This document shows, piece after piece, positions 17,017-30,874 of a stretch of DNA of 30,874 bases. Both the position numbers and the translations under genes were made by a program. Position 1 is the stretch's first letter, and each line of letters begins with the position of its first letter. The DNA comes from a virus: positions 1 through 30,874 of IMG/VR virus record IMGVR_UViG_3300045988_027766. One strand, given 5' to 3'. The notes under the pieces were generated by a model, which was given only the letters and a program-made list of their open reading frames with translations, did not search any database and was not told the DNA's origin.

Positions 17017-17286
17017 TTATTTGTCGATGATTTCTGCTGCCGTGTAATGGATTTCTCCGTCGAGCAGTATTAGTGGGTATTTGATTGGTTTGTTTTGGTT
17101 TTTGGCGATGGTGCGTATTGCGGTTGCGGTGGGGCTGCCGGATGGGACGACGTGCAGTTGTCGCCACATCCATTGCGCTGCCGTGCGGCATGAGTCCAGG
17201 AATTTTGTGGTTTCGGGTTTGCAGGTGGGGCATCCGTCGAAGAGCACGTAGATGTCTTTGCTTTTAAGGAGGGAGTTGATTGTCAT
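17017..17286 (-). CDS. glutaredoxin/NrdH-like thioredoxin-fold protein
   Basis: The last 89 codons of track ORF 17017..18147 read MTINSLLKSKDIYVLFDGCPTCKPE... with a CPTC redox motif after a beta-strand. The start is in an ATGA overlap with the exonuclease stop. Confidence 0.6.
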   Translation of the reverse strand: MTINSLLKSKDIYVLFDGCPTCKPETTKFLDSCRTAAQWMWRQLHVVPSGSPTATAIRTIAKNQNKPIKYPLILLDGEIHYTAAEIIDK

Positions 17287-18188
17287 TGGAATGATGCTCC
17301 TGTTGTTTCGGTGATGGTGTCGATGATGTGTAGGGTGTTGAGTTGTTTGCGTTTGTGGTCGGCGATGAGGGGTTCGATGTCCTTTCTGTGGATTGGGATG
17401 ATTTGGTGTCGTGCGTCTCCGTATACGCGTGGGTCGTACATGCTGAAGTAGAGGGTTTCTAGTGTGTCGCAGACGACGAAGTATTGGAGTGCTTGTGCCT
17501 GGTATGTGTCGGGGATGAAGTCTATGCCGGTGGCTTTGGGGCTTGTGGTTTCCGGTGGGAGGACTTGCGCGGCCATGTCGGCGAGTTTGCTTGGCAGGGT
17601 GTGTTGGCGCATGTATTGTAGGTGGATCATCCATGGGATGGCGGCTTGGAGGTGGTAGGCGCTTCCGAGGCTTTTGCATTCGATGGCCCATGTTGGGTTT
17701 TCCGATGCTTGGTAGGCGTCTGGGCTGCATGCGATTCGTGGGTCTTCGTCGCTTTCCCAGATGCCGCAGTCGGTGATGCAGTCTTCCTGCTGGTAGCCGA
17801 GTTGTTGGAGGGTGAGTGTGATGTTTTCGGGTTCGAGTCTGTGTCCGCGTGCCATGGGGTTTTCTCCGTCTGGTTGTTCGGCCATGGTTTCGGCGAGGAA
17901 TTTCCAGAAGTCGATGCCGACTTTGAGGCGTTTGTTTTTTGCTTCGGCTTCGAGGATGCGTGTGTCGTAGTCTTGTGCTTTTTGGAAGTGTTCGTCGGAT
18001 TCCTTTTGTGTTTTCGCGGTTTTTGATTGTTCGAGTGCTTTGTTGCGGGTTTTGATGAGTTTGGTGGTGTCGGTTTGTGAGTAGTGGCTCATGGCTAGGC
18101 TGCCGCTTTTGGTGCCGGTGATGCGGCCTAGGCGTTCTTGGAGCCATGCGTTGGTGTCGTGGGCTTGTGATAGGTTGATGATTTTCAT
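17283..18188 (-). CDS. YqaJ-type (lambda Exo-like, PD-(D/E)xK) recombination exonuclease
   Basis: 301 aa; AWLQERLGRITGTKSGSLAM near the N-terminus, then ..IACSPDAY.. and ..WAIECKSLGS... Confidence 0.75.
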   Translation of the reverse strand: MKIINLSQAHDTNAWLQERLGRITGTKSGSLAMSHYSQTDTTKLIKTRNKALEQSKTAKTQKESDEHFQKAQDYDTRILEAEAKNKRLKVGIDFWKFLAETMAEQPDGENPMARGHRLEPENITLTLQQLGYQQEDCITDCGIWESDEDPRIACSPDAYQASENPTWAIECKSLGSAYHLQAAIPWMIHLQYMRQHTLPSKLADMAAQVLPPETTSPKATGIDFIPDTYQAQALQYFVVCDTLETLYFSMYDPRVYGDARHQIIPIHRKDIEPLIADHKRKQLNTLHIIDTITETTGASFQ

Positions 18189-18276
18189 TGTCAGTCCTTT
18201 CTTGAAGCTGATATCTTTATTATATCTCTCGTATGTGACTGGATGGTGTGAGGCGTGTCGTGTTTTCGATATGAGA

Positions 18277-18303
18277 AAGACCCCGGTGGTATGCCGGGGT
18301 CTT
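18277..18303 (-). terminator. hairpin between erf and the exonuclease gene
   Basis: aagaccccgg / ccggggtctt forms a 10-bp stem with a 7-nt loop, 4 nt after the erf stop. The U-tail is weak. Confidence 0.4.
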
Positions 18304-18306
18304 GTG

Positions 18307-18900
18307 TCACATACTGCTGATGGCGTTCATGAGTTTGGTCATGTCGGCTTGGGTGATTCCCCTCCAGCCTTTGACGGGGCGGTTCAGGGTGCCTGAGATG
18401 AATTCGCCGCGTGCTTCGGTTGGGAGGTGGTGTGCGTCCATCGCTTTGACGAGCGTGGCGTATTGGTCGGCTCCTATCGGCTTGTCGGCGGTCTCGTATT
18501 GCTGTCGGGCGTAGCTTCCGTCGTCGTCCTTGTCGGGGAAGATGCCGAGGATGGTGGTGAGACTGTAGCGTCGTGCATAGGTGATGGCGCTGCCGACCTG
18601 TTGGGGGTCTCCGGTGACGAAGAACGGGTATTCGCATACCGTCATCTGGTCGGTGTCGTCGAAGATGATGGTTTCGATGGTGCCGAGGATCTGGCGTCCT
18701 TCTCCCGTACCGTCGAAGGTCACTTTTTGGGTGAATGCGAGTCCGTGCTTGTTGAAGATCGGTTTGATGTTCTTGAGGAGTGTGGCGAGGTTGAGGTATT
18801 TGTAGGTGCGGCTTCCGGCGTTGGCGGTTTCGTCGGTGCTGAAGTTAGGTACTTCGTTGAGGACTTCGGCGAATTTGCGGTTGAGGCTGTTGTTTTCCAT
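18307..18900 (-). CDS. erf: ERF-family single-strand annealing protein
   Basis: 197 aa; RTYKYLNLATLLKNIKPIFNKHGLAFTQK and VGSAITYARRYSLTTILGIFPDKDDDGS are ERF hallmarks. Confidence 0.8.
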   Translation of the reverse strand: MENNSLNRKFAEVLNEVPNFSTDETANAGSRTYKYLNLATLLKNIKPIFNKHGLAFTQKVTFDGTGEGRQILGTIETIIFDDTDQMTVCEYPFFVTGDPQQVGSAITYARRYSLTTILGIFPDKDDDGSYARQQYETADKPIGADQYATLVKAMDAHHLPTEARGEFISGTLNRPVKGWRGITQADMTKLMNAISSM

Positions 18901-18931
18901 GGTTGGTTCCTTTTTTGCCTTGTGTTGGATG

Positions 18932-19288
18932 TCAGTGCTTGTAGATTGGGTAGACGACGGTCATTGGGGTTGATTCGGTGACGTTGTTGTAGATCATTTC
19001 GAGGGTTTCCATGCCTCCGATGTTGTATGCCTGTACGTAGAAGTCGATGCGTTCCGGGTTGTTTTTGGCGAGCGCGTAGAGGTAGCATGCCCATTCCGCG
19101 CCGTTGTGGGCCCATTCGTAGTCTTCGAAGGTTTGGGAGTAGTCGTCGAGGGTGACGTATTTGTGGTCGCCGACGTGGTAGATGACGCCTTTTGGCGTGT
19201 GGTTGGTGTCGTAGTGGCTTTTTTGGTCGAGGCGGACGTCGATGTTGTGCATCATGGTCTGGACTTCGGTTGTGGTGATGGCGTTCAT
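18932..19288 (-). CDS. hypothetical early protein
   Basis: 118 aa with SD AAAAGGAAAC. It is the first gene after promoter 19339-19347. Confidence 0.55.
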   Translation of the reverse strand: MNAITTTEVQTMMHNIDVRLDQKSHYDTNHTPKGVIYHVGDHKYVTLDDYSQTFEDYEWAHNGAEWACYLYALAKNNPERIDFYVQAYNIGGMETLEMIYNNVTESTPMTVVYPIYKH

Positions 19289-19338
19289 TTTGGTTTCCTT
19301 TTCTTATGTGTATGCCAAGCGTATCGCTTGATATGTTT

Positions 19339-19347
19339 AATATATCA
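19339..19347 (-). promoter_or_regulatory. extended -10 promoter TGaTATATT
   Basis: Minus strand reads ttgTGaTATATTaaacata, about 45 nt upstream of ATG 19288. Confidence 0.55.
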
Positions 19348-19351
19348 CAAT

Positions 19352-19380
19352 GCGGCGTGTGTTTAAAGGTGACACGCCGC
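19352..19380 (-). terminator. inverted repeat gcggcgtgt / acacgccgc (terminator and/or operator)
   Basis: Perfect 9-bp arms with an 11-nt spacer. It lies between the 19437..19607 operon end and promoter 19339-19347. Confidence 0.5.
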
Positions 19381-19436
19381 AAAGTTGATCGTTGCCTATC
19401 GTTTCCTGTAGGAGATGAGTATCGTGAGTGCGAGGA

Positions 19437-19607
19437 TCAATGCCGTGAGGATGTCACTATTCGTGCCCATGCCTTGTCTTTCTCGTACTGTTTGATGACG
19501 GCTTCGATCTCCGGTTTGCAGCATTGCGGGATGAGCGGGGCGAATTCGTCGACGGTCAGGCCGTCCTCATGCCATTTGATGATCTGGTTTTTCAGTGTTT
19601 TCTTCAT
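19437..19607 (-). CDS. small hypothetical protein (56 aa)
   Basis: MKKTLKNQIIKWHEDGLTVDEFAPLIPQCCKPEIEAVIKQYEKDKAWARIVTSSRH. ATGA overlap with the upstream stop. Below the track cutoff. Confidence 0.4.
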   Translation of the reverse strand: MKKTLKNQIIKWHEDGLTVDEFAPLIPQCCKPEIEAVIKQYEKDKAWARIVTSSRH

Positions 19608-19780
19608 CGGTGGTTCTTCCTTACTGCCGAGTAGAATTCGGAGCTTTCCTGGTGGACTCGCCGGACGGTGTTTTCGTCCATGTCGAGGATTTCGGCGGTC
19701 TTTTCGACTGACTGGTCGAGGTCGAAGAGGTAGTGTTCGATCAGGAGTCGGTCGAGTGGGATGTCATTCAGTTTGCGCAT
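19604..19780 (-). CDS. small HTH protein resembling sigma-70 region 4
   Basis: 58 aa, MRKLNDIPLDRLLIEHYLFDLDQSVEKTAEILDMDENTVRRVHQESSEFYSAVRKNHR. Below the track cutoff. Confidence 0.45.
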   Translation of the reverse strand: MRKLNDIPLDRLLIEHYLFDLDQSVEKTAEILDMDENTVRRVHQESSEFYSAVRKNHR

Positions 19781-20132
19781 TGTTTTCTTCTTCCTTCATC
19801 ATTCGGTTGATTGCTTCGATGACCAGGTGCCAGTCGCTTCGTCCGATGCAATGCCATGCGGCTCTTTCGAGGCCGGTGGTCGATGCGACGAGTTTGCGGA
19901 TGATGAGGCCGCATCTGCCGGAGGTTTCCGTCTTTTCGTGTCTTATGGCGGCTTTTCGTGCGTACCATCGTGCTTTTTTCAGGTCTTCCGTCGGGTTTCC
20001 TTTGTCTTTGTATCGCCATAGGTATTTGATGACGTTGCCGGTGCAGAAGTATTGGCGTTTGGCGAGGAGGATGCATTCGTAGCCGATGTTGCGGCTGGTG
20101 TAGTGTGCTGGATGGTCGACGGTGTCGTTCAT
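19764..20132 (-). CDS. DUF3310 (SaV-like) protein
   Basis: Internal ATG at 20132 of track ORF 19764..20405. Contains MNDTVDHPAHYTS..YECI...GNVIKYLWRYKDKG..EDLKKARWY. Confidence 0.7.
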   Translation of the reverse strand: MNDTVDHPAHYTSRNIGYECILLAKRQYFCTGNVIKYLWRYKDKGNPTEDLKKARWYARKAAIRHEKTETSGRCGLIIRKLVASTTGLERAAWHCIGRSDWHLVIEAINRMMKEEENNAQTE

Positions 20133-20578
20133 GCTTGTTCCTTTCGGGTGGTTTCGAGTTTTGCGGCTTTGGCTTTGGCTCGTCGTATGCGTGCTCGTTC
20201 TCTTTGTTTGCGTACGTATTCGGCTTTCTGTTCCGTGGTCATGGCGTGGTATCGGGCTCTCTGTTTGGCGAGCATTGTTTCCCTCCATTCGGGGTCGGTG
20301 TGGTATCGGGCTCGGGCGGCTTCGCGTTTCTTTTTTAATGTTTTTGGTTTGCTGTGGTATTCTCTCTGTTTTTCCGCGTAGTGTTCGGCGTGTGTTTCCC
20401 TCCATTTCCTGTTGGCTTCGGCGCGTTCCTCTTTGTGGCGGTGGTAGTAGCGGTAGTCGCTGATCTTGCGTCGTTCGTTGGCTGATGGCTGGCTGTTGCG
20501 CATTTCGTTGATCCAGTCCATCAGGTTTTGGTCGTTGAAGTCGATTTCGATTGGTTCCTGTGTTTTCTTTCTTCCCAT
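20129..20578 (-). CDS. basic, repeat-containing hypothetical protein
   Basis: 149 aa, rich in R/K/E, with recurring R-x-x-YH / WRET motifs. Confidence 0.5.
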   Translation of the reverse strand: MGRKKTQEPIEIDFNDQNLMDWINEMRNSQPSANERRKISDYRYYHRHKEERAEANRKWRETHAEHYAEKQREYHSKPKTLKKKREAARARYHTDPEWRETMLAKQRARYHAMTTEQKAEYVRKQRERARIRRAKAKAAKLETTRKEQA

Positions 20579-20586
20579 TTTTGTCC

Positions 20587-20877
20587 TTAGAGGCAGATTT
20601 CGATGAGGTTGGCTAGTTCTTCTGGGGTGATGGTTGTGGCGGCCTTGTCGAATAGGGTGCCGTTTGCGATCGTGGTTCCTGTCTCGTCGTACAAGACCAT
20701 GTCGATCAGGTTGTCTTCGACTGGGGTGAGGTGGAGTTTCCTGTCTGATCCGTGTTTGGTGATTTCGCAGGTGGTGCCGTATTCGTCGAGGTTGACGACG
20801 GTTGTCTTGTAGTTTGTCCCGGTGGCGTTTAGGGCGTTGGAGATGTTAAGGGCGAGTGCGTTGGTTTCGATGCTCAT
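20587..20877 (-). CDS. hypothetical early protein (96 aa)
   Basis: Compact spacing and a coding-like composition. No motif recognised. Confidence 0.5.
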   Translation of the reverse strand: MSIETNALALNISNALNATGTNYKTTVVNLDEYGTTCEITKHGSDRKLHLTPVEDNLIDMVLYDETGTTIANGTLFDKAATTITPEELANLIEICL

Positions 20878-20898
20878 TTTTGTTCCTTTCTTGGGTGT

Positions 20899-21189
20899 TC
20901 AGAAGAGTTTCTTGATGTCGTTTACGATGTCTGCCGGGGTGGTGGTGGGGAGTGCGGTGTCCCAGCTGATGCCTTCGCAGATGGGATCGTCGTCGGTTTC
21001 GTTGTCGTAGGATGCTGCGTTGAAGATTCCCGGTTCGGTTTCATCTTCTGCGATGTAAACGATGATGTCGGAGTTTTCCTTGGTGATTTCGATGGTGTCC
21101 GTGTTCCTGTGGATGTGTTCGCAGTATTCGTGGGGGAGGGTTGCGGTGAGGAATTGGAACATGTCTTCGGCGTCGTTGATGGTGATCAT
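20899..21189 (-). CDS. small highly acidic early protein (96 aa)
   Basis: Internal ATG at 21189 (MITINDAEDMFQF...) of track ORF 20899..21459, with SD AAAGGAAAAC. It is D/E-rich (..IAEDETEPGIFNAASYDNETDDDPICEG..). Confidence 0.55.
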   Translation of the reverse strand: MITINDAEDMFQFLTATLPHEYCEHIHRNTDTIEITKENSDIIVYIAEDETEPGIFNAASYDNETDDDPICEGISWDTALPTTTPADIVNDIKKLF

Positions 21190-21235
21190 TTCAGGTTTTC
21201 CTTTCGAGTGTTTTCCTTGCCTGATATCTGACACT

Positions 21236-21264
21236 ATACCCACAATCGTGATGTGACACGCCGA
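21236..21264 (-). promoter_or_regulatory. early promoter: TCGGCGTGTC box - 16 nt - TATAGT
   Basis: Minus strand reads atcggcgtgtcacatcacgattgtgggTATAGTgtc, about 45 nt upstream of ATG 21189. Confidence 0.5.
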
Positions 21265-21276
21265 TGGGCAAGGAAA

Positions 21277-21306
21277 AAGGCGGCACGCTTTCATACGTGT
21301 CGCCTT
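21277..21306 (-). terminator. rho-independent terminator after the DnaC-like gene
   Basis: Minus strand reads aaggcgacacg-tatgaaag-cgtgccgcctt followed by tttcct. Confidence 0.7.
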
Positions 21307-21313
21307 GATATGG

Positions 21314-22156
21314 TCAGAGGCCGAGAAGTGATTTGGCGCTCGCCATCTTGTCTCGCATCTTCTTGTTTCGCCTGTCGGCCCCGTTGACTTCGAGGAAGAT
21401 GCACATTTCCTTGAGGCGGCTGAAGACGCGTTGACGGCGGATGTCGGACGGGTCGGCAAGATCTTTCAGGGGGAGGTTGGTGGTGACGATGAGTGGCAGT
21501 CCTGCACGGTAGCGTGCGTCGACGACGTTCATCACTTTCTCCCACGTGAATTCCGTGTCCCGTTCCGCTCCTAGATCGTCGATGATGAGGAGGTCGAAGC
21601 GGTTGAGGTCGTCGAGGTATTTCTGGTCTCCACCGAATTTTTCGCTTATACGGCTGATGATACGGCTGAAATTGGTCATCAGGCATGGAGTGCCTTGGCT
21701 GATGAGCTCGTTGGCGATGGCTGCTGCGAGGAAGCTTTTGCCGGTTCCTACCGGGCCGCAGAGGAGCAGTCCGGTGCCTTGTTTGCGCATGGTGTCGAAG
21801 TTTGCGACGTATCTGCGTGCGATGCTTTCGTTTCGTTGGTCGGTGTGGTCGGATTTCGTGAAAGTCCATTCGCGCATTTCCGCGTCGGGGAAGCCGGTGC
21901 GTCGCATGCTGTCGAGGTATTGCATGCGGTCGCGTTTGCGTTTTTCTTCGGCTTCTTTGGCGTTTTGTGCGACGCTGCATTCGCATGCGCAGCGGACGGT
22001 TCGTGTGGTTCCGTCTTTGCCGGTCAGGACGCATTCCTTTTGGGTGTGGCATTTGCCGCATATGAGGAGGCCGTCTTCGTTGCGGTAGTCTCCTTCGGCT
22101 TCGGAGTATTGGCGGGAAACGCGTGCGCCGATGGTGCCGATGATGTCGATGTCCAT
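21314..22156 (-). CDS. DnaC/IstB-like AAA+ helicase loader
   Basis: Walker A LLLCGPVGTGKSFLA and Walker B FDLLIIDDLGAE, with an N-terminal Cys-rich region. ATG 22156 follows GAAAGG; the track ORF extends to 22192. Confidence 0.8.
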   Translation of the reverse strand: MDIDIIGTIGARVSRQYSEAEGDYRNEDGLLICGKCHTQKECVLTGKDGTTRTVRCACECSVAQNAKEAEEKRKRDRMQYLDSMRRTGFPDAEMREWTFTKSDHTDQRNESIARRYVANFDTMRKQGTGLLLCGPVGTGKSFLAAAIANELISQGTPCLMTNFSRIISRISEKFGGDQKYLDDLNRFDLLIIDDLGAERDTEFTWEKVMNVVDARYRAGLPLIVTTNLPLKDLADPSDIRRQRVFSRLKEMCIFLEVNGADRRNKKMRDKMASAKSLLGL

Positions 22157-22231
22157 TGTGGGCCTTTCTGTTGTTTTATTACAATCGTACATCGCGTGCT
22201 GCTGGCGTTGTGTTCCCGGCGTGTCGTGGTG

Positions 22232-23080
22232 TTAGAATACGTAGTTCTTGATGAAGTCTTCGACTTCCTCGTCGTGTTGGCGTTGTTCTTCCGGCGTGCG
22301 GGGCCACTGCGACTGCTGTGGCTTCTGCTGTGGCTTCTGGTATCCGGTGCGCTTGTAGTTTTCGATGGGGAAGAAGGAGCTCCAGCCGCGGCAGATGACT
22401 TCGTTGAGGTAGTCGTTGACGCTCATGTGGCTTTCCTGTGCGCAGTTATCGAGTTTGTCGATGTTGCCTCGGATGGCTCGATCGGTCATTGCGGAGCGCT
22501 TGGCCTTGCGGTTCTGGAGCCATGCTCCGAGTAGATCCTTGGTCGTCGGGTCGTTGGTGTAGGCGTCGATGATAGCGTCGAAGCTTTGGGCTTTGCGGGT
22601 CTTTTTTGGTTGTGGTTTTGGTTCCGGTTCGGCGATGGGCGGCTGGAATTGTTCCGGTGTTGCGTTCGTGGTGTTGGCCCATGGATCCTGTGCCGTGGTC
22701 GGGGCTTGGATGGGGTTTTCGGTGGTGGTTTCTTCCGGGTCGGGTTCGTCTGAGTGGACGTTGACGTCGAGCATCGCTTCTGCTTTTGCCGTCAGCGTAT
22801 ACCATGTGGTGCGATCGTATGCGGACTTGTTGTAGTTGCCTGTGAGGATGAGTCCGTTGTCCTTGAGTTTCTTGATGGCGGTGCGAATGACGTTGACCGT
22901 CATGTATGGGAAGAGCTCTCCGAATGCCTTGGTGCTGTTGAAAGTCCAGTAGTGGCCGTCGTGGAGGTTCGTGTGGTTGGCCGCGTTGTGTTCGCACCAG
23001 TAAGAGATGTTCTCTAGGAGGATTGCGGCGTTGGTGCCGACGAGCTGTGCGACTCCGATGTCGAGGATGTGCTTCTTCAT
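22232..23080 (-). CDS. replisome organiser: N-terminal wHTH + C-terminal DnaD/DnaB_2-like domain
   Basis: 282 aa. The N-terminus reads ..ILLENISYWCEHNA..GHYWTFNSTKAFGELFPYMTVNVIRTAIKKLKDNGLI... After an acidic/Pro linker comes ..LLGAWLQNRKAKRSAMTDRAIRGNIDKL... Confidence 0.65.
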   Translation of the reverse strand: MKKHILDIGVAQLVGTNAAILLENISYWCEHNAANHTNLHDGHYWTFNSTKAFGELFPYMTVNVIRTAIKKLKDNGLILTGNYNKSAYDRTTWYTLTAKAEAMLDVNVHSDEPDPEETTTENPIQAPTTAQDPWANTTNATPEQFQPPIAEPEPKPQPKKTRKAQSFDAIIDAYTNDPTTKDLLGAWLQNRKAKRSAMTDRAIRGNIDKLDNCAQESHMSVNDYLNEVICRGWSSFFPIENYKRTGYQKPQQKPQQSQWPRTPEEQRQHDEEVEDFIKNYVF

Positions 23081-23218: not shown

Positions 23219-23248
23219 GTATAACACGTTTTTTAGACGACACGCCGA
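23219..23248 (-). promoter_or_regulatory. early promoter: TCGGCGTGTC box - 15 nt - TGtTATACT
   Basis: Minus strand reads gtcggcgtgtcgtctaaaaaacgTGtTATACTaga. It overlaps the 3' end of 23233..23538 and gives a ~130-nt leader for 22232..23080. Confidence 0.5.
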
Positions 23249-23538
23249 CTTACTCGGTTTATCGTATACCAGCTGAGGTTGCCGTGATGAACCATTCTGA
23301 GCAGACCCTGATCCTCAAGCTTTTCGAGAGCCTTGGAGACGATGACTTCGGGCAGTTCCGGAAACATCCGGGGGAAATCCTCGTAGGGCATCCGAACCCA
23401 ATAACGGCCGGCGTGGAAATGCCTCTGCCGCTTCCTCTGTTTCCGGTAGAAGTCGTAGAGCTGAGCGTAGACGGCTGCCGCGGAGAATCCCAGTCTCTTG
23501 ACCAGTTTGGTCATATGCTGAAGATCGTTCAAGATCAA
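23233..23538 (-). CDS. wHTH protein paralogous to the N-terminal domain of the replisome organiser
   Basis: 101 aa. ..AAVYAQLYDFYRK....GRYWVRMPYEDFPRMFPELPEVIVSKALEKLEDQGLL..SWYTI aligns by eye with residues ~20-95 of 22232..23080. Confidence 0.55.
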   Translation of the reverse strand: MILNDLQHMTKLVKRLGFSAAAVYAQLYDFYRKQRKRQRHFHAGRYWVRMPYEDFPRMFPELPEVIVSKALEKLEDQGLLRMVHHGNLSWYTINRVSRRVV

Positions 23539-23783
23539 TCCTCCCCCTCGATGAACGAGCTGAAGAGACTCCGATTGTAGAGGATGCCTCCAAGCTTCGA
23601 CAATGCGGTCACCGGATTATCGTACTTCCTGCATGCGGCATCCCAAGCCTCGAGGACTTCCTCATCGCCGAACTTCAAGCATAGGCCCGAGAAGAACTTG
23701 CGGGACTTCTGTTCGCCTTCCTCGCTGAAGTGGACGCCGTACCGTTCGACGAGACTGTTTCCGATAGTGTCATAAACGCTCAT
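23535..23783 (-). CDS. hypothetical early protein (first gene of the leftward operon)
   Basis: 82 aa with SD AAAGGAG. ATGA overlap with the next gene. Confidence 0.55.
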   Translation of the reverse strand: MSVYDTIGNSLVERYGVHFSEEGEQKSRKFFSGLCLKFGDEEVLEAWDAACRKYDNPVTALSKLGGILYNRSLFSSFIEGED

Positions 23784-23816
23784 TATGTGCTCCTTTCTTG
23801 CTAATGCGTTACCTCA

Positions 23817-23847
23817 AGCATACCACGAAGCATCGAAAAGCATCGAA
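23817..23847 (-). promoter_or_regulatory. extended -10 promoter TGgTATGCT with two tandem AAGCATCGAA boxes over its -35 region
   Basis: Minus strand reads cttcgatgcttttcgatgcttcgTGgTATGCTtgagg. The -10 ends ~34 nt before ATG 23783. Confidence 0.45.
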
Positions 23848-24000
23848 GAGGCAAGGGGTAGACACCCACCATCCATCTACATCCTCACCTCACTCACGTA
23901 CCCAACCCTCACTCACTCGCCTGACTCTCACCCACGTTCACCCCGGCCACCGCCATGCCCTGTTTCTTGAGGGAGGGAGCGAGCTTCGGTGGAGAGAGTA

Positions 24001-24045
24001 AGCCTTAAGAGCTGAAAAATTTAAGTGCTTTTTCAGGTTAAGGCT
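24001..24045. other. long imperfect hairpin with AT-rich centre
   Basis: agccttaa-gag-ctgaaaaa-tttaagtgc-tttttcag-g-ttaaggct (7-8 bp + 8 bp stems). Confidence 0.6.
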
Positions 24046-24304
24046 GATGACTGTTTCCGTCGGTCGGTCGGTCGTACGGCGTCGGTCATAAGAGTGATGC
24101 ATTACTGTCACTGGTGCGGCATACCCCAACAGATCGCGCTACATCTTTTTGCTTTGGATGTGATGGTGTCGGCACCCCGGTTATTCCACCATCGTCTGAA
24201 GGGTCGGTTGAACTAGCACCTCTAACGTGTGTATCGGCGAGTGTGAGTCGCCGCCCCGTTCTCCGAGCTTGGGGTATTGCTAGGAAGTTGTTGTGCCTCC
24301 GCAC

Positions 24305-24336
24305 CCAAGTATGTGATATACTTGGCCTTGTTTTTT
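24305..24336 (+). terminator. + strand hairpin plus T6 (first of two tandem terminators in the ORF-free region)
   Basis: ccaagtat-gtgat-atacttgg, then ccttg tttttt. Confidence 0.45.
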
Positions 24337-24343
24337 GCTATAA

Positions 24344-24384
24344 CCCCATCATAGCACACTCCGGCTGTGATGGGGATTTTTTTA
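24344..24384 (+). terminator. + strand rho-independent terminator (second of tandem pair)
   Basis: ccccatca - 16-nt loop - tgatgggg, followed directly by attttttta. Confidence 0.65.
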
Positions 24385-24678
24385 TGCCATCAACGTATCC
24401 ACGGCATTCCTCTCCCGCGCTTTTCACCGCACATGCCTCCAGAACGCACGTAAAGGCCCCCCAAACCGATTTACACGCAAAACCCGATAACTCGTCAGGA
24501 CTCACCCACGATAGCCCGTCAGAAAAGCCTTTACGCACGAAAACGACGTTCCAGCCCAAACAAGCACCGAAAAGCATCGAGAACGCCAAACCGTAAGAGA
24601 ACCACCCAAGCCAAGCACAGGCCGACTCTCCTCCATGCCCTAACCAGATCGAACATCGAGACCAAGGCACGAAGTGCA

Positions 24679-24711
24679 GCATCGAGACCAAGCCCGTATC
24701 CTCCTCGATGC
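24679..24711. repeat. 33-bp hairpin element, copy A (identical to 25094..25126)
   Basis: gcatcgagaccaagcccgtatcctcctcgatgc. The terminal 8 nt are inverted complements. Confidence 0.9.
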
Positions 24712-24751
24712 CCAGAGCCATGGAAGAAGCATGGAAGACATCAGGTCGGAT

Positions 24752-24843
24752 CCCATGGCTCCATGCCTCAGCCACCGAAGACATCGAGGCTAGGCTCCGA
24801 TCGGTCAGGACTCCCGATCCCCTTGGGTTGGGATTGGTTCCCC
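24752..24843. repeat. 92-bp perfect direct repeat, copy A (identical to 25140..25231)
   Basis: cccatggctccatgcctcagccaccgaagacatcgaggctaggctccgatcggtcaggactcccgatccccttgggttgggattggttcccc, read identically at both sites. Confidence 0.9.
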
Positions 24844-24889
24844 TCCGGGACACCGAGGCGCGCAAGCGCCCTTACTTGTTTAGGGGAGT

Positions 24890-24926
24890 GTTTACAACTG
24901 CCGGTTACAACTGGGGTTACATCTGG
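24890..24926. repeat. three tandem ~12-bp repeats GTTACAWCTGG
   Basis: gtttacaactg cc ggttacaactgg ggttacatctgg. Confidence 0.8.
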
Positions 24927-24942
24927 TATAGGTTCGCGTTTC

Positions 24943-25005
24943 CACCCAAATTCATTTTAATCTTCACCCAAATTCATTTTAATCTTCACCCAAATTCATT
25001 TGGGT
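24943..25005. repeat. 22-bp tandem iteron-like repeats x2.7, last copy forming a palindrome
   Basis: cacccaaattcattttaatctt occurs twice, then cacccaaattcatttgggt (acccaaat/atttgggt arms). Confidence 0.9.
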
Positions 25006-25093
25006 TTATTCTCAAATGGATTTCAGTCCTACCTCAAAGGGGTGTGGGCGTCTGGGCCGCGGAATTCCAACGAAAAATGCCTATCCATGTCGA

Positions 25094-25126
25094 GCATCGA
25101 GACCAAGCCCGTATCCTCCTCGATGC
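25094..25126. repeat. 33-bp hairpin element, copy B
   Basis: Identical to 24679..24711. Confidence 0.9.
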
Positions 25127-25139
25127 TTCCGAGCTTCTC

Positions 25140-25231
25140 CCCATGGCTCCATGCCTCAGCCACCGAAGACATCGAGGCTAGGCTCCGATCGGTCAGGACT
25201 CCCGATCCCCTTGGGTTGGGATTGGTTCCCC
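25140..25231. repeat. 92-bp perfect direct repeat, copy B
   Basis: Identical to 24752..24843. Confidence 0.9.
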
Positions 25232-25275
25232 ACGGACACGCACGCGGCTCCCTGCGGGAGCCGTATATGTGTAGT

Positions 25276-25316
25276 GGAAGGGTTATCTAATAGAAGGGTT
25301 ATCTAGTAGAAGGGTC
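25276..25316. repeat. 16-bp tandem repeats AGAAGGGTTATCTAR x2.5
   Basis: ggaagggttatctaat agaagggttatctagt agaagggtc. Confidence 0.85.
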
Positions 25317-25321
25317 TTTGC

Positions 25322-25339
25322 TTGATACCCAGGTATCAA
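25322..25339. repeat. perfect palindrome TTGATACC-ca-GGTATCAA
   Basis: 8-bp arms with a 2-nt spacer. Further ATACC/ATAC half-sites follow. Confidence 0.85.
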
Positions 25340-25401
25340 AGGGGTCAATACCTAGATACTGAAGGTAATCGGTTTATTCCGCCTTTCATCGCGTCTGGGT
25401 T

Positions 25402-25460
25402 GACTGAACAAACAAGGCCCCGGCCAGTCCGGGAATCTCTTCCCAAACCCAACCGGGGCC
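25402..25460 (-). terminator. terminator of the 26589->25479 operon
   Basis: Minus strand reads ggccccgg - 29 nt - ccggggcc, followed by ttgtttgtt. Confidence 0.5.
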
Positions 25461-25478
25461 ATGCCTATTCCTAAGCCG

Positions 25479-25820
25479 TCACGTCTCCCTGACGCTCATG
25501 CCATACCGTCGTGCGAAGAGCTTGCTCTTAAGCCGGTACACGTCCGTTCTCATGCCCTTGACGTCCTCGACGACCTCCTTGCCCGTCTCCTTGTCCACGT
25601 AGACGAAATCCGCTACGTAATAGACAGGCCGGTAATGTCTGCCATCCACGTCGAAGGCTGGCACGAGCTCATAACGCACCTGTCGGCGCAGACCTTCGAT
25701 GGATCCGTCCTCCTCCATGCCCTTCAGGACGAGATACCTGTCGGCCTCCTTCCGCGAGTCGAAGGTGATGCCATCGACAGTCGTCTTATGGGCGTGGTAT
25801 TTGCTCCGTCCGTTCCACAT
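25479..25820 (-). CDS. DUF1064 (putative Holliday-junction resolvase/endonuclease) protein
   Basis: 113 aa; KTTVDGITFDSRKEADRYLVL...YYVADFVYVD..GKEVVEDVKGMRTDVYRLKSKLF. Confidence 0.7.
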   Translation of the reverse strand: MWNGRSKYHAHKTTVDGITFDSRKEADRYLVLKGMEEDGSIEGLRRQVRYELVPAFDVDGRHYRPVYYVADFVYVDKETGKEVVEDVKGMRTDVYRLKSKLFARRYGMSVRET

Positions 25821-27178: not shown

Positions 27179-27985
27179 ATGAATACCGAAATCCAAACAT
27201 TCAACTTCAACAGCGCCCCAGTGCGCACCCTGACCGACGAGAACGGTGACCCGTGGTTCGTCACCAAAGACGTATGCAACATCCTTGGACTTAACAACGT
27301 AGGCCAAGCGTTGGCACGCCTCGACGACGACGAGAAGAGTTCCATCACTTTTAAAGATGGAACCCCCGGAAACCCAAACAAGGCAATTGTTTCTGAATCC
27401 GGCCTCTACTCTCTCACCCTCGCATCACGCAAACCGGAAGCCCACGAGTTCAAACGCTGGGTAACCCACGAGGTGCTGCCTCAGATCCGCAGAACTGGCG
27501 GATACATTCCCACCACAGCCGTGGACGATGACATGACCATCCTCGCGAAGGCCGTGCTCGTCGCACAGAAGACCATCGAACTCAAGAACCAACAGCTCCA
27601 AGCCAAAGACACGCAAATCAAGGAGCTGGAACCAAAAGCGCAAGCCCTTGACGCTTTTACCGACGTGGAAGACCGACTTCTCGTCCGCGACGCCGCCAAG
27701 ATCCTCTCCAACTCCGGCACCATCATCACCGAAAAGCAGTTGCGCGAATGGATGGCAGCCAACGACTGGATCTACAAGCACAATGGTTCGTGGCAAGCCA
27801 CCGCAAGACACTGCACGGCCGGCCACCTCGTAATGGTCATGTCCACAAAGCACGGCACCAAGCCCAACGGCACGAAATTCGCTTTCCCACCCACCGTACG
27901 AATCACCCGCAAAGGCCTGGCCCTGCTACACGCACGACTCGGCGAAACCCGCCTGAACGAAACGCTCGAAACAACCACCCACTAA
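27179..27985 (+). CDS. antirepressor, Bro-N + KilAC (ANT) domains, paralog 1
   Basis: 268 aa; FNFNSAPVRTLTDENGDPWFVTKDVCNILGL...FKRWVTHEVLPQIRRTGGY, then the C-terminal part ..LLVRDAAKILS..EKQLREWM. Confidence 0.8.
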   Translation: MNTEIQTFNFNSAPVRTLTDENGDPWFVTKDVCNILGLNNVGQALARLDDDEKSSITFKDGTPGNPNKAIVSESGLYSLTLASRKPEAHEFKRWVTHEVLPQIRRTGGYIPTTAVDDDMTILAKAVLVAQKTIELKNQQLQAKDTQIKELEPKAQALDAFTDVEDRLLVRDAAKILSNSGTIITEKQLREWMAANDWIYKHNGSWQATARHCTAGHLVMVMSTKHGTKPNGTKFAFPPTVRITRKGLALLHARLGETRLNETLETTTH

Positions 27986-28005: not shown

Positions 28006-28833
28006 ATGAACACCGAAATCCAACCATTCGAATTCGAAAACAACCAGGTCAGGGCACTGGCCGATGGCGACGAAGTAATGTTCGTCGCATCCGACATCGC
28101 CAAGATTCTCGGATACCGCGACGCGGCCAACCTCACACGCACCCTTGACGACGACGAAAAAGGTACTCATGAAGTGAGTACCCCCCGTGGTGGTATGCAA
28201 ACCATGACTGTCCTCGCCGAGTCCGGCCTTTACCGCGCAATCCTTAATCGTGAAATCGCCTACGTGAAAGAGCCGGAATCACAGGCATTCGTGAAGCGCT
28301 TCCAGCGTTGGGTCACCCATGAGGTGCTCCCATCCATCCGCAAGCATGGTATCTACGCTACCGAAACCACCATCGACCAGATCCTAACCGACCCGGATTT
28401 CGGCATCAGACTGCTCACCAACCTGAAAGAAGAACGAGCCAAACGAATCGAAGCCGAAAACCAAGTCAAGGAGCTGGAACCAAAAGCGAAAGCATTGGAT
28501 GACTTCACCGACGTGCCCGACACCCTACTAGTCAGGGACGCCGCGAAACTGCTCTCGAACGCCGGCACGCCCATCGGCGAGAAGGAACTGCGAGAATGGC
28601 TCAGCCAGCACGATTGGATCTACCGGCATGCCGGCACATGGTGGGCAGCCTCGGAACGCGTGAAAGCCGGACACCTGGTCATGGTAGAGTCAAGATCGTA
28701 CGGACAACATAGGGACGGCACGAAATTCGCTTTCCCACCCACCGTACGAATCACCCGCAAAGGCCTGGCCCTGCTACACGCACGACTCGGCGAAACCCGC
28801 CTAACCAAAACGCTCGAAACAACCACCCACTAA
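28006..28833 (+). CDS. antirepressor, Bro-N + KilAC (ANT) domains, paralog 2
   Basis: ATG 28006 follows AAAAGGAAAC (the track ORF starts at 27748). The 275-aa product has FEFENNQVRALADGDEVMFVASDIAKILGY...FQRWVTHEVLPSIRKHGIY. Confidence 0.8.
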   Translation: MNTEIQPFEFENNQVRALADGDEVMFVASDIAKILGYRDAANLTRTLDDDEKGTHEVSTPRGGMQTMTVLAESGLYRAILNREIAYVKEPESQAFVKRFQRWVTHEVLPSIRKHGIYATETTIDQILTDPDFGIRLLTNLKEERAKRIEAENQVKELEPKAKALDDFTDVPDTLLVRDAAKLLSNAGTPIGEKELREWLSQHDWIYRHAGTWWAASERVKAGHLVMVESRSYGQHRDGTKFAFPPTVRITRKGLALLHARLGETRLTKTLETTTH

Positions 28834-29926: not shown

Positions 29927-30874
29927 ATGCAGATAGCAAGACCATACCGTGATTTATGGTGGTGGCTCCATACGGAGACGCCACCATATCGTTATTACTG
30001 CTATTCCGGCGGTCGAGCTTCCGGCAAAAGCACCGCCGTCGCACAAAGCCTCATACTCCGTGCCGCCAGCCAGCCAATCACCGTCCTCTGCGCGCGAGAA
30101 TACCAAAATTCCATTTCCGACTCCGTGCACAAGCTTCTTGTCGGCACCATCCGTAAATTCGGATTGCAAGGCTTTGAAATCACCCGCGACGGCATCAGCC
30201 ACATCAACGGCAGCACTTTCATCTTCCGCGGCCTGCACAACAATTTCGAAAGCATCAAAAGCATCGAAGGCATCGACGTCTGCTGGGTCGAGGAAGCACA
30301 GACAGTCGGCAAGGAAAGCCTGACCACGCTCATCCCGACCATCCGCAAAGCCAATTCCACACTGATCTTCACATGGAACCCCCGTACGAGCCACGACACC
30401 GTCTGGAACTATTTCATCTCCTCGGACTCAAAGGAACGTCACAAGCAGACCTGTCACTGGCATACAACATTCAAGGACGTGGAAAGACTCCTCAGCCCGG
30501 ACGTACTCGCCATGATCGAAGCCGACCGGAACTCCGCAGACTTCGGCCACATCTGGCTAGGACTCCCCTACTCGGACACCGACAATCAGCTCATCAGCGA
30601 CAGCATGCTCAACGAAGCCATCCACCGCACCCCAGAGGACGGCCCGGTCACCTTCGGCATCGACGTGGCCCGATACGGCAACGACCGCACCGCACTCACC
30701 ATCAAAAAAGGCAACCATATCGAAACACTCGAATCATGGACGCATTCAAGCATCGTCGACACAGCCGAACGGATCAGGCTCCGCGCCTCCCAATACCAGC
30801 CGATCGACATCCGCATCGACGACACCGGCGTAGGCGGAGGCCTCACCGACCTCCTCAAATCATGGCAACTGCCA
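29927..30874 (+). CDS. terL: terminase large subunit, N-terminal (ATPase) part; runs off the window end and continues at base 1
   Basis: Frame 2 from ATG 29927 reads MQIARPYRDLWWWLHTETPPYRYYCYSGGRASGKST (Walker A). It continues with ..IDVCWVEEAQ (Walker B) and ..FGIDVARYGNDRTAL (nuclease). There is no stop before the end, so it is absent from the ORF track. Confidence 0.85.
   Translation, partial: MQIARPYRDLWWWLHTETPPYRYYCYSGGRASGKSTAVAQSLILRAASQPITVLCAREYQNSISDSVHKLLVGTIRKFGLQGFEITRDGISHINGSTFIFRGLHNNFESIKSIEGIDVCWVEEAQTVGKESLTTLIPTIRKANSTLIFTWNPRTSHDTVWNYFISSDSKERHKQTCHWHTTFKDVERLLSPDVLAMIEADRNSADFGHIWLGLPYSDTDNQLISDSMLNEAIHRTPEDGPVTFGIDVARYGNDRTALTIKKGNHIETLESWTHSSIVDTAERIRLRASQYQPIDIRIDDTGVGGGLTDLLKSWQLP
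30734..30874. repeat. terminal overlap copy 2 (identical to 1..141)
   Basis: See 1..141. Confidence 0.9.

What the first reader, a model, noticed from the sequence alone, without database searches (positions are those of the whole stretch)
24679..25262. Duplicated module: 33-bp hairpin + 92-bp perfect repeat, each capped by a different stable hairpin
Module A is 24679-24711 (33 bp, gcatcgag...ctcgatgc hairpin) plus 24752-24843 (92 bp). Module B is 25094-25126 plus 25140-25231.

Both segments are identical base for base between the modules. The linker between the hairpin and the 92-mer differs (40 nt versus 13 nt), and the sequence after the 92-mer has diverged. In both modules that sequence still folds into a strong hairpin:
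- A: ggcgc-GCAA-gcgcc, a GNRA tetraloop, at 24857-24870.
- B: ggctccc-tgc-gggagcc at 25245-25261.

The 92-mer contains an internal hairpin gatcgg-tcaggactc-ccgatc. A related gtcaggactcaccc occurs at 24494.

Perfect conservation of 125 nt next to diverged flanks argues for selection or gene conversion on a functional element. That element could be paralogous small RNAs or a protein-binding platform.
Basis: seen in the sequence. Interest (0 to 1): 0.65.

Follow-up and report, generated by a model that had tools for sequence, protein, structure and literature searches.

The report
Two tandem phage replication-origin cassettes
The perfect repeat is real, and it is best read as the conserved sequence beside two different replication-origin cassettes placed one after the other in a gut phage: a leftover of swapping origin and initiator, not a pair of small-RNA genes.

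Summary
92 nt (24752-24843 = 25140-25231) and 34 nt (24678-24711 = 25093-25126) are identical, separated by different linkers and capped by different palindromes.

The window is a ~30 kb siphophage from human-gut metagenomes with about 30 relatives. Most relatives carry this unit once, downstream of a DUF1064 gene and its terminator. The unit opens a ~450-nt non-coding block under purifying selection.

Upstream of the unit every genome has a swappable cassette: 2-5 repeats at 22-24-nt spacing, about three shorter AT-richer repeats, and a palindrome. There are five cassette types. The type next to the conserved block predicts the N-terminal DNA-binding domain of the lambda-O-like initiator exactly (24 genomes, ARI 1.00). 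Neighbouring genes do not track it (ARI at most 0.16). In distant relatives the epsilon-type sequence lies inside the initiator gene, as in lambda.

I read the cassettes as origins. Module A is the origin matching this phage's initiator, with an intact flank. Module B is an orphan alpha-type origin with a truncated flank copy. Seven other genomes carry double cassettes with different junctions. Nothing is experimentally shown, and the flank's own function is unresolved.

A separate ~345-nt structured RNA with strong covariation lies next door.

The parts
25416..25460 (-). Intrinsic terminator that ends the dUTPase/DUF1064 operon. It marks the left border of the origin region when read on the minus strand.
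   Evidence: Hairpin plus T-run found in the scan. It is conserved, with compensating changes, in relatives (first alignment block). Coordinates.
25272..25362 (.). Alpha-type cassette, read here as an orphan origin. It holds two palindromic sites (25324-25337 and 25347-25360, consensus ATACCTAGGTAT) and three 16-nt repeats (25272-25319, CCCTTCTACTAGA type). GC is 0.375-0.45.
   Evidence: Genomes in which alpha is the only cassette all carry the R2-type initiator. The window's initiator is a different type.
25245..25263 (.). Palindrome B (CGGCTCCC-TGC-GGGAGCCG). This is the class I palindrome also found in single-copy alpha and beta relatives.
25140..25231 (.). 92-mer copy B. On the minus strand its first ~45 nt belong to the class I cassette arm and its last ~47 nt are the start of the family-wide conserved block.
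25127..25139 (.). Linker B, 13 nt. It is unique to this phage and lacks the 3' arm of helix H1.
   Evidence: No match in 183 fetched loci at up to 3 mismatches.
25093..25126 (.). 34-mer copy B (GCATCGAG-N17-CTCGATGC). The flank copy ends here.
25005..25092 (.). Spacer X. It looks like a diverged copy of the spacer that normally follows the DUF1064 terminator, based on short matches in the same order (TTTTCGTTGG, CCCAGACGC, AGGTAGGA, GAATAAA).
   Evidence: Each match is weak alone (E 0.2-3); only their order supports homology.
24943..25008 (.). Epsilon-type iterons: three 22-nt repeats (minus strand AAAATGAATTTGGGTGAAGATT). GC is 0.30-0.33.
24890..24937 (.). Short repeats (GTTGTAAC type, three copies) and adjoining sequence. 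This stretch is homologous to the repeat-bearing, AT-rich stretch that lies inside the initiator gene of distant relatives L034 and L035.
   Evidence: 88% identity over 34 nt between window 24905-24937 and L035. Coordinates.
24857..24870 (.). Palindrome A (GGCGC-GCAA-GCGCC), the end of the epsilon cassette.
24752..24843 (.). 92-mer copy A, continuous with the intact conserved block.
24712..24751 (-). Linker A, 40 nt. This is the ancestral form (about 41 nt in single-copy relatives). It carries the 3' arm of helix H1 at 24714-24725.
24678..24711 (-). 34-mer copy A, which forms helix H2 of the conserved block.
24397..24677 (-). Remainder of the conserved non-coding block. It includes the UUCG hairpin (24667-24677) and a 14-bp helix with two G.U pairs. 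Its function is unresolved.
   Evidence: Many 1-nt indels, so not coding. Column-shuffle z of -5.8 on the minus strand against +2.0 on the plus strand. Identity 83.7%.
22232..23080 (-). Replication initiator, a lambda-O-like / DnaD-like replisome organiser with an R3-type N-terminal domain. It is the presumed partner of the epsilon cassette.
   Evidence: PHROG 11233 (E 9e-37) and PHROG 678 'replication initiation O-like' (E 2e-26). Co-variation with cassette type.

Best explanation
The region 24.85-25.40 kb holds two replication-origin cassettes in tandem. The finding's repeated 92-mer and 34-mer are the conserved sequence that normally follows one such cassette.

Each cassette has three parts, read on the minus strand (the direction of the neighbouring genes):
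- an array of initiator-binding repeats (iterons) at 22-24-nt spacing;
- about three shorter, AT-richer repeats;
- a palindrome.

A ~450-nt conserved non-coding block follows the palindrome.

The cassette next to the intact block is the epsilon type, which goes with module A. It matches the N-terminal DNA-binding domain of this phage's lambda-O-like initiator and is the working origin.

The upstream cassette is the alpha type, which goes with module B. It is an orphan, because its cognate R2-type initiator is not encoded in the window. It is followed by only a truncated copy of the block: the 92-mer, a foreign 13-nt linker and the 34-mer.

The arrangement is a by-product of exchanging origin-plus-initiator specificity by recombination. 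The two copies were made or homogenised recently within this lineage.

Shown: the anatomy, the family-wide conservation, and the exact co-variation between cassette type and initiator domain.
Inferred: initiator binding, origin function, non-function of the alpha cassette, and the recombination route.
For: 1. Family context. There are 32 related ~30 kb contigs, and most carry the unit once, 300-400 nt past the DUF1064 gene.

2. Which part of each module is ancestral. Module B keeps the ancestral upstream part and module A the ancestral downstream part.

3. Cassette architecture. Every genome has the same layout, in five sequence types. A variant alpha-prime type also exists. The two window cassettes are AT-rich troughs, GC 0.30-0.45 against about 0.55 for the genome.

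4. Co-variation with the initiator.
- The initiator N-domain clusters match the proximal cassette type exactly (ARI 1.00, n=24).
- Control genes do not: the ~100-aa gene lying between cassette and initiator, the initiator C-domain, p82, the DnaC-like gene and DUF1064 give ARI at most 0.16.
- Additional contigs from the metagenome and IMG/VR scans fit the rule, including alpha-prime with a 65%-identical R2-like initiator.

5. Double-cassette genomes. The initiator always matches the downstream cassette.

6. Initiator family. It belongs to the lambda-O-like / DnaD-like family.

7. Intragenic origins in distant relatives.
- In L034 and L035 the epsilon-like sequence, imperfect repeats and an AT-rich stretch lie inside the initiator ORF, between its two domains.
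- L004 has three repeats at 22-23-nt spacing right after the N-domain.
- This matches the lambda layout described in PMC7466680.

8. No cognate protein for alpha. No ORF within +/-10 kb co-occurs with alpha cassettes (best p = 0.026).

9. Signs of decay in orphans. Orphan alpha arrays have 2-4 palindromic sites, against 4-5 in alpha-only genomes (my count).
Against: - There is no experimental evidence for initiator binding or for origin activity.
- The palindromic alpha sites would also suit a dimeric repressor.
- A simple scar does not explain why 126 nt are identical while the 13-nt linker between them is completely different.
- Upstream alpha cassettes (partial in L014 and L026) remain in 7 of the 25 classified genomes, plus an upstream beta in L025. 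That frequency could mean they are kept for a reason.
- The role of the conserved block is unknown, so the repeated sequence itself has no shown function.
- Co-variation between cassette and initiator would also be expected if the arrays were only autoregulatory operators.
- The scan of bacterial genomes for the element failed, because my pattern was too loose. Host copies are therefore not excluded.
Confidence: 0.65

Rival explanations
1. The repeat arrays are operators, not origins. The initiator (or another regulator) binds them to control a promoter in the cassette, and the duplication creates two regulated transcription starts, each followed by the same leader.
For: - Alpha sites are palindromic at 22-nt spacing, like repressor operators.
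- -10-like strings (GATAAT, TAAATAAT, TATAAG) sit a few nt upstream of the palindrome in several relatives.
- The conserved block folds better on the minus strand, as a leader RNA would.
- Initiators often repress their own genes (general knowledge of iteron plasmids).
Against: - The consensus scan finds no promoter beside either module, apart from one weak hit inside the epsilon iterons.
- The initiator operon has its own conserved extended -10 (TGGTATGCT, 23817-25) just upstream of p82, about 1 kb downstream of the cassettes.
- The homologous epsilon sequence lies inside the initiator ORF in L034/L035. That is an origin position, not a promoter position.
- The AT-rich short repeats and the palindrome fit an origin layout.
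Confidence: 0.12
2. Both cassettes are functional and the tandem state is selected. The orphan alpha origin either recruits the initiator of a co-infecting alpha-type phage or titrates it away as a decoy, giving this phage an edge in mixed infections.
For: - Eight of the 25 classified genomes keep an upstream extra cassette, alpha in seven and beta in L025, with different junctions. This suggests repeated, independent retention.
- Alpha arrays in L024, L031 and L036 still have 3-4 good sites.
- There is precedent: plasmids carrying lambda iterons plus the oop RNA block rep-lambda phages (PMC3349717). Lactococcal 'Per' origin decoys are a further precedent (my knowledge).
Against: - Orphan arrays are shorter than working ones, 2-4 against 4-5 sites. 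L014 and L026 have lost the short repeats, which looks like decay.
- The window's alpha array has only two sites.
- No test of function is possible with these tools.
Confidence: 0.1
3. Modules A and B are two paralogous small-RNA genes. On the plus strand each would run 34-mer hairpin, 92-mer, terminator hairpin.
For: - Each 92-mer is followed on the plus strand by a GC hairpin and a partly U-rich tail: CTTACTTGTTT for A (listed as terminator-like) and TATATGTGT for B.
- The motif CTTACTTA after the palindrome is conserved in alpha, beta and epsilon cassettes.
- Plus-strand folds have z-scores of -2.3 and -2.6.
Against: - No promoter was found on the plus strand in 24400-25100, and there is no Rfam match.
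- Consensus folding favours the minus strand: -197.5 against -140.5 kcal/mol. About 16% of paired cells are G.U (my tally), and these would be A.C mismatches on the plus strand.
- Most relatives have one copy.
- The linker differs in copy B and removes a conserved helix arm.
- In gamma and delta relatives the half of the 92-mer next to the 'terminator' is replaced by unrelated sequence.
Confidence: 0.06
4. The tandem arrangement is an assembly artefact that joined two strain variants through their shared 92-mer.
For: - The repeats are exact and longer than usual assembly k-mers.
- The data come from metagenomes.
Against: - The unique path 92-mer, linker B, 34-mer, spacer X, epsilon cassette, palindrome A, 92-mer has a 92-mer at both ends. 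Some molecule must therefore carry two copies (reasoning).
- The look-up reported 4 contigs encoding the identical initiator protein; the one scaffold shown also carries both 92-mer copies.
- Four other contigs show analogous double cassettes with different junctions.
Confidence: 0.03

Closest known systems
ori-lambda and the O initiator of lambdoid phages (including Stx phages)
   Same: - An array of initiator-binding iterons next to an AT-rich tract (PMC7466680).
- An initiator of the O-like family with an N-terminal origin-binding domain (PHROG 678 / 11233).
- Iteron type and N-domain change together across the family. From my knowledge, specificity likewise resides in the O N-terminus of lambda, phi80 and P22.
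- In relatives L034, L035 and L004 the repeats lie inside the initiator gene after the N-domain, as in lambda.
- From memory, ori-lambda also ends in a palindrome and has an oligopurine AT-rich stretch, which resembles the gamma and delta cassettes.
   Different: - In this family the origin is intergenic, 1.5-2 kb upstream of the initiator gene.
- It is separated from that gene by a conserved non-coding block, an optional RNA gene and two small genes.
- The cassettes are swapped as units.
- About a quarter to a third of the genomes keep a second, orphan cassette.
- Neither binding nor origin function has been tested.
Origins of staphylococcal pathogenicity islands and of Gram-positive phages such as SPP1 oriL or lactococcal P335-type ori (my knowledge; SPP1 context in PMC5737612, listed but not read)
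   Same: - Non-coding or intragenic iteron arrays beside an AT-rich region.
- A cognate, type-specific initiator or replisome organiser.
- Cloned origins can interfere with phage replication (the 'Per' phenotype).
   Different: - There is no sequence similarity.
- Here five or six specificity types coexist within one otherwise ~80-85% identical phage family.
- Tandem orphan cassettes have not, to my knowledge, been described for these systems.
Mosaic module exchange at conserved boundary sequences in temperate phages (modular theory; my knowledge)
   Same: - Variable cassettes are flanked by conserved sequence: the terminator on one side and the 92-mer core on the other.
- Different genomes show different junctions.
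- Neighbouring genes assort independently.
   Different: The exchange here has often been out of register, leaving a partial duplicate of the conserved flank. In the window that duplicate is still 100% identical.
Single-strand initiation (ssi) / primosome assembly sites next to plasmid origins, such as pAMbeta1 ssiA (my knowledge)
   Same: A strand-specific set of hairpins immediately beside an origin. The helices tolerate G.T/G.U pairs on one strand only.
   Different: No sequence relationship and no functional test. An RNA or a set of double-stranded protein sites would explain the same data.

Membership tests
Iteron-type (lambda-O-like) phage replication origin | An array of at least 3 direct repeats of about 18-24 bp at regular, roughly two-helical-turn spacing | tested here: met
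   Epsilon has three 22-nt repeats at 24943-25008. Alpha has two sites in the window and 4-5 in alpha-only relatives at ~22 nt. Beta, gamma and delta have 4-5 repeats at 22-24 nt.
Iteron-type (lambda-O-like) phage replication origin | An AT-rich stretch adjacent to the iterons | tested here: met
   GC is 0.30-0.375 at 24940-25040 and 0.375-0.45 at 25260-25380, against ~0.55 for the genome.
Iteron-type (lambda-O-like) phage replication origin | An initiator of the O / DnaD-like replisome-organiser family encoded in the same replication module | tested here: met
   Window 22232-23080 matches PHROG 11233 (E 9e-37) and PHROG 678 'replication initiation O-like' (E 2e-26). It is followed by a DnaC/IstB-like ATPase.
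Iteron-type (lambda-O-like) phage replication origin | Iteron sequence and initiator DNA-binding domain are matched in specificity | tested here: met
   Tested by co-variation only. Five N-domain clusters equal five proximal cassette types (ARI 1.00, n=24) and controls reach at most 0.16. Six to seven further genomes are consistent.
Iteron-type (lambda-O-like) phage replication origin | The origin lies inside the initiator gene (lambda-specific feature) | tested here: not met
   The window's cassettes are intergenic and there is no repeat array inside 22232-23080. The feature is met in distant relatives L034, L035 and L004.
Iteron-type (lambda-O-like) phage replication origin | The initiator binds the repeats and replication starts there | not testable with these tools
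   This needs EMSA or footprinting, plus origin mapping.
   No sigma-70-type promoter was found next to either module on either strand. Only hairpin A scores as terminator-like, and weakly.
   96.7% of cells pair, but there is little variation. Only 3 pairs have double changes, and shuffles reach the observed score in 25 of 500 trials. The column-shuffle z is -5.7 on the minus strand.
   Rfam 15 gives no hit at gathering score. At E up to 10 there are only two unrelated weak hits.
Protein-coding sequence | An open frame conserved across relatives, with indels in multiples of three | tested here: not met
   Frequent 1-nt indels occur across 24397-24800 in 26 relatives. The long ORFs here are by-products of skewed base composition.
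Recombination scar / partial tandem duplication | The flanks of the two copies trace to different cassette lineages, and the duplication is not fixed in the family | tested here: met
   The upstream side of copy B equals the class I alpha layout of L007/L012. The upstream side of copy A is the epsilon type, related to L035. Copy number is single in about 20 of 27 relatives. L024, L025, L031 and L036 also duplicate part of the flank, and L022, L014 and L026 carry two cassettes without a flank duplicate; the junctions differ in every case.
Insertion sequence / MITE / host-gene fragment | Terminal inverted repeats with a target duplication, or copies in host genomes | tested here: inconclusive
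   No terminal inverted repeats bracket the unit. The scan of bacterial genomes used too loose a pattern and returned only chance hits.

The most novel reading that the evidence does not exclude
The extra, non-cognate origin cassette with its truncated flank is kept on purpose. It would act as a decoy or landing pad for the initiator of competing alpha-type phages in the same gut host, a phage-borne version of origin-titration exclusion. In addition, the conserved flank it drags along may be a new kind of origin-associated structured element, either an RNA or a single-strand initiation signal.
Probability: 0.12. Interest if true: 0.65.

Novelty: new member of a known kind. Interest (0 to 1): 0.4.

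Why it matters
- It explains a striking perfect repeat without invoking a new RNA gene.
- It locates the probable replication origin of an uncharacterised family of human-gut phages. Their nearest cultured relatives are Bifidobacterium phages, at 43% capsid identity.
- It gives five or six natural, predicted origin-initiator specificity pairs within one otherwise near-identical genome backbone. If they are shown to bind and replicate, they could serve as orthogonal replicon parts for gut Actinomycetota.
- It offers a natural experiment on how origin and initiator co-evolve and are exchanged.
- The recurrent orphan origins raise a testable question about competition between related phages.

Tried and rejected
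- **Known RNA families and tRNAs.** Rfam at gathering score over the whole window and at E up to 10 on 23400-25600 gave no relevant family. No tRNA or tmRNA was found.
- **Nucleotide searches of GenBank phages.** A distant search with 2.4 kb and a near search with 25 kb both found nothing.
- **Exact-match scans of IMG/VR.** A 69-nt piece of the 92-mer gave nothing, nor did the epsilon iterons. Linker B has no match in any fetched locus.
- **Coding reading.** Rejected because of 1-nt indels.
- **Single-sequence folding.** Both modules on both strands gave weak z-scores, -1.7 to -2.6, which do not decide the strand.
- **The ~100-aa stand-alone initiator-domain gene (23233-23538) as the cassette-binding protein.** Rejected, because its variants do not follow cassette type.
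- **Unbiased association of all ORF clusters within +/-10 kb with cassette types.** It pointed only to the initiator region and found nothing for alpha.
- **Internal repeat arrays in R2-type and window initiator genes.** None were found.
- **Bacterial-genome scan.** The pattern GAGCCATGG-N22-34-CCATGGCT was too loose.
- **GC skew as an origin indicator.** Rejected, because skew here follows gene orientation and amino-acid composition.
- **Literature.** I found nothing on origins of Bifidobacterium phages.
Full report
**1. The observation**

The repeat finder and direct reading confirm two exact repeats:
- 92 nt at 24752-24843 and 25140-25231;
- 34 nt at 24678-24711 and 25093-25126.

They are separated by linkers of 40 and 13 nt that cannot be aligned.

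The internal hairpin GATCGG..CCGATC is present in the window. Most relatives do not have it.

**2. Setting**

The window is a siphophage of about 30 kb:
- Structural genes lie on the plus strand: portal 518-2605, capsid-protease fusion 2802-4610, tape measure 8458-10509, amidase 14749-15591.
- Early genes lie on the minus strand: YqaJ exonuclease, ERF, a DnaC/IstB-like ATPase at 21314-22192, and an initiator at 22232-23080.
- Further right on the minus strand are DUF1064 (25479-25820) and dUTPase.

The finding sits in a 1.7-kb stretch without genes. This stretch lies between the DUF1064 terminator (25416-25460) and a small gene, p82 (23535-23783), all in minus-strand orientation.

No GenBank phage matches at the nucleotide level. 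The nearest cultured phages by capsid protein are Bifidobacterium phages BlindUri1 and BlindBasel1, at 43% identity. Related contigs come from IMG/VR and from human-gut metagenomes.

**3. The unit is conserved, and single-copy in most relatives**

Thirty-two related contigs were fetched through the DUF1064 protein.
- BLAST finds the 92-mer at 75-85% identity and the 34-mer at 82-97%.
- They usually occur once, 300-400 nt past DUF1064, with a ~41-nt linker like that of module A.
- All of 23543-24850 is about 80% identical across the family.

The 400 nt from 24797 down to 24397 are not coding, because 1-nt indels are frequent. They are nevertheless 83.7% identical to relatives. Third codon positions of four neighbouring genes are only 69-71% identical. 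The block is therefore under purifying selection.

An alignment of the two window modules with single-copy relatives shows which parts are ancestral:
- Module B has the ancestral upstream side: the palindrome GGCTCCC..GGGAGCC plus GCGTGCGTGTCCGT.
- Module A has the ancestral downstream side: the 40-nt linker, a UUCG hairpin and the rest of the block.

The window is thus the usual unit with a second cassette and a partial second flank inserted.

**4. What lies upstream: swappable cassettes**

I printed the sequence between the terminator and the unit for 27 genomes. All share one architecture, read on the minus strand:
- 2-5 repeats at 22-24-nt spacing;
- about three shorter repeats of 13-16 nt in an AT-richer stretch;
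- a palindrome, often preceded by TAAGTAAGRC.

The repeat sequences fall into five types:

| Type | Long repeat | Other features | Where found |
|---|---|---|---|
| alpha | palindromic AATACCTAGGTATCGACCCC | CCCTTCTACTAGA short repeats | module B side of the window; L007, L010, L012 and others |
| beta | GGCCGCAAAATCAGGGTGG | GGGATACTCTAG short repeats | 10 relatives |
| gamma | CCCTCAAAATGAGGGTGGCCAA | oligopurine palindrome GAAAGAAAGAT/ATCTTTCTTTC | 8 relatives |
| delta | CACTGCAAAATTTACAGC | same palindrome as gamma | 6 relatives |
| epsilon | AAAATGAATTTGGGTGAAGATT, three copies | GTTGTAAC short repeats, three copies; palindrome GGCGC..GCGCC | module A side of the window only |

Gamma and delta genomes replace the palindrome-proximal half of the 92-mer with unrelated sequence. 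Only the distal ~47 nt of the 92-mer belong to the universal block.

In the window both cassettes are AT-rich troughs, GC 0.30-0.45 against about 0.55 overall.

**5. The cassette type predicts the initiator's DNA-binding domain**

The 282-aa protein at 22232-23080 matches PHROG families annotated 'replication initiation protein' (E 9e-37), 'replication initiation O-like' (E 2e-26) and 'DnaD-like helicase loader'.

I clustered its N-terminal ~100 residues across the family.
- Genomes with beta, gamma and delta cassettes give three tight groups, 72-93% identical within a group and 50-66% between groups. The groups coincide exactly with cassette type.
- A distinct R2 type is found only in alpha-only genomes.
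- The window's own R3 type stands alone.

Agreement with the cassette next to the conserved block is perfect (adjusted Rand index 1.00, n=24).

Five control proteins show no agreement (ARI at most 0.16):
- the ~100-aa gene lying physically between the cassette and the initiator gene;
- the initiator C-terminal domain;
- p82;
- the DnaC-like protein;
- DUF1064.

Physical linkage alone therefore does not explain the match.

Further genomes obey the same rule. One lineage has altered palindromes (GGAAGTnnnCTTCC) and an R2-like domain only 65% identical to the others.

An unbiased test of all ORF clusters within +/-10 kb found no protein that goes with alpha cassettes.

**6. Link to classical origins**

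The window's R3 N-domain is 58-60% identical to that of L034 and L035. In those phages the initiator gene follows DUF1064 directly. The sequence homologous to the epsilon cassette (88% over 34 nt with window 24905-24937) lies inside the initiator ORF, between its two domains. Imperfect AAAGGGCAAATGGA-type repeats and an AT-rich stretch accompany it.

L004 carries a 50%-identical N-domain and has three repeats at 22-23-nt spacing right after that domain.

I therefore read the cassettes as origins. In this family they have been moved out of the gene to a fixed intergenic site.

**7. The duplication**

In every genome with two cassettes, the initiator matches the downstream one:
- L022: alpha then beta;
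- L014, L024, L026, L031, L036: alpha then gamma;
- L025: beta then gamma.

The window has alpha then epsilon, with an R3 initiator. The upstream cassette is therefore an orphan.

The junctions differ between genomes:
- after the 34-mer in the window;
- at the start of the 34-mer in L024, L025, L031 and L036;
- before the 92-mer in L022;
- inside the alpha array in L014 and L026.

These look like independent events.

The two flank copies are 80% identical in L024, 85% in L031 and 100% in L025 and the window. In the window both copies also share a rare variant otherwise seen only in L023. They were therefore copied from one another, or homogenised, within this lineage.

The spacer between the modules (25005-25092) has short matches, in the same order, to the spacer that normally follows the terminator. 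This is weak evidence. It suggests the epsilon unit arrived with its own left flank through an out-of-register exchange.

Copy B lacks three things: the 3' arm of the main helix, the UUCG hairpin and everything beyond. Orphan alpha arrays have 2-4 sites, against 4-5 in alpha-only genomes (my count). This fits decay, but the sample is small.

**8. What the repeated sequence itself does is not settled**

On the minus strand the unit forms three helices:
- H1, AGCCATGGGA with UUCCAUGGCU;
- H2, the 34-mer;
- H3, GCAC-UUCG-GUGC, which has two compensatory changes.

96.7% of cells pair, but variation is low and the controls are not decisive.

Consensus folding favours the minus strand, -197.5 against -140.5 kcal/mol. 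Two stretches score about z = -5.7 against column shuffles. One of them scores z = +2.0 on the plus strand, because its 14-bp helix contains two G.U pairs.

This fits three readings: a minus-strand RNA, single-stranded DNA hairpins of the kind found in single-strand initiation signals (ssi), or double-stranded protein-binding sites.

The motif CATCGAG/CTCGATG is concentrated here, with 8 of its 10 occurrences in the window. A 19-nt relative of it recurs at the p82 promoter (repeat D7).

The initiator operon has its own conserved extended -10 just upstream of p82. The block is therefore not simply that operon's leader. No promoter was detected beside either module.

**9. Verdict**

The repeat is real. 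It is best explained as the conserved flank of two tandem origin cassettes, one cognate and one orphan, left by an exchange of origin-initiator specificity.

It is a new member of a known kind, the iteron origin with an O-like initiator, in an uncharacterised gut phage family. The small-RNA reading is not supported.

Four things remain open:
- direct proof of initiator binding and origin activity;
- the role of the conserved block;
- why 126 nt are identical while the short linker between them is not;
- whether orphan origins are kept for a reason.

**10. Neighbouring feature outside the finding**

An optional ~345-nt element at about 23930-24300 on the minus strand is a separate structured RNA candidate.
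- It is present in 16 of about 27 relatives, and at a different site in L034.
- It has 95 predicted pairs, 23 of them with compensatory double changes.
- It has its own extended -10 promoter.
- It has no Rfam match.

Noticed in passing
window ~23930-24300 (minus strand), within the optional segment 23856-24397; also L034:18962-19349: A ~345-nt structured RNA candidate. It is present in 16 of ~27 relatives and absent from the rest, and it sits at a different genomic site in the more distant 37-kb phage L034 (81% identity). RNAalifold on 17 sequences gives 95 pairs, 23 with compensatory double changes, including a closing helix that joins the two ends. It is preceded by an extended -10 (TGCTATGAT/TATAAT, 24348-24356). 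It has no Rfam match. It looks like a new phage non-coding RNA and is arguably more novel than the finding itself.
   Followed up: partly
window 23233-23538 (minus strand): A 101-aa protein that is a stand-alone copy of the initiator's N-terminal DNA-binding domain (PHROG 11233, residues 10-94, E 5e-9). It lies just upstream of the full initiator, and most relatives have one. Its variants do not follow cassette type, so its DNA target is unknown.
   Followed up: partly
window 24575-25176 and 23828-23846: The motif CATCGAG/CTCGATG is concentrated in the conserved block and the modules: 8 of its 10 occurrences in the window, against 4.8 expected over the whole window. A 19-nt version (AAGCATCGAAAAGCATCGA) recurs at the -35 region of the p82 promoter and at 24562-24580. 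It may be a protein-binding box.
   Followed up: no
window 23808-23838 (minus strand): A conserved extended -10 promoter (TGGTATGCT in the window, TGGTATACT/TGGTACACT in relatives) about 35 nt upstream of the p82 start codon. It is probably the promoter of the initiator operon.
   Followed up: partly
whole window, e.g. 1-8000 and 9000-23000: Very strong strand composition skew. GC skew reaches -0.45 and AT skew +0.46 at 1-8 kb, and the signs flip at 9-23 kb. The coding strand is mostly A+C-rich, which produces many long spurious ORFs in other frames. The tail genes at 8.4-14 kb are an exception.
   Followed up: no
window 27179-27985 and ~28010-28833 (plus strand): Two adjacent Bro-N/KilAC antirepressor-like paralogues with nearly identical C-terminal ends (...FAFPPTVRITRKGLALLHARLGETRL..TLETTTH). 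This is another recent duplication or conversion in the same genome.
   Followed up: no
window 4613-4945 (plus strand): A small protein with a collagen-like GPAGP repeat run, lying just after the capsid gene.
   Followed up: no
window ends (1-500 and 29950-30874): No large terminase ORF is listed inside the window, and the family's contigs are ~30 kb. The window may be a whole, circularly permuted genome cut inside the terminase gene. Several IMG/VR contigs of the family end inside the cassette region instead, perhaps because the repeats break assemblies.
   Followed up: no
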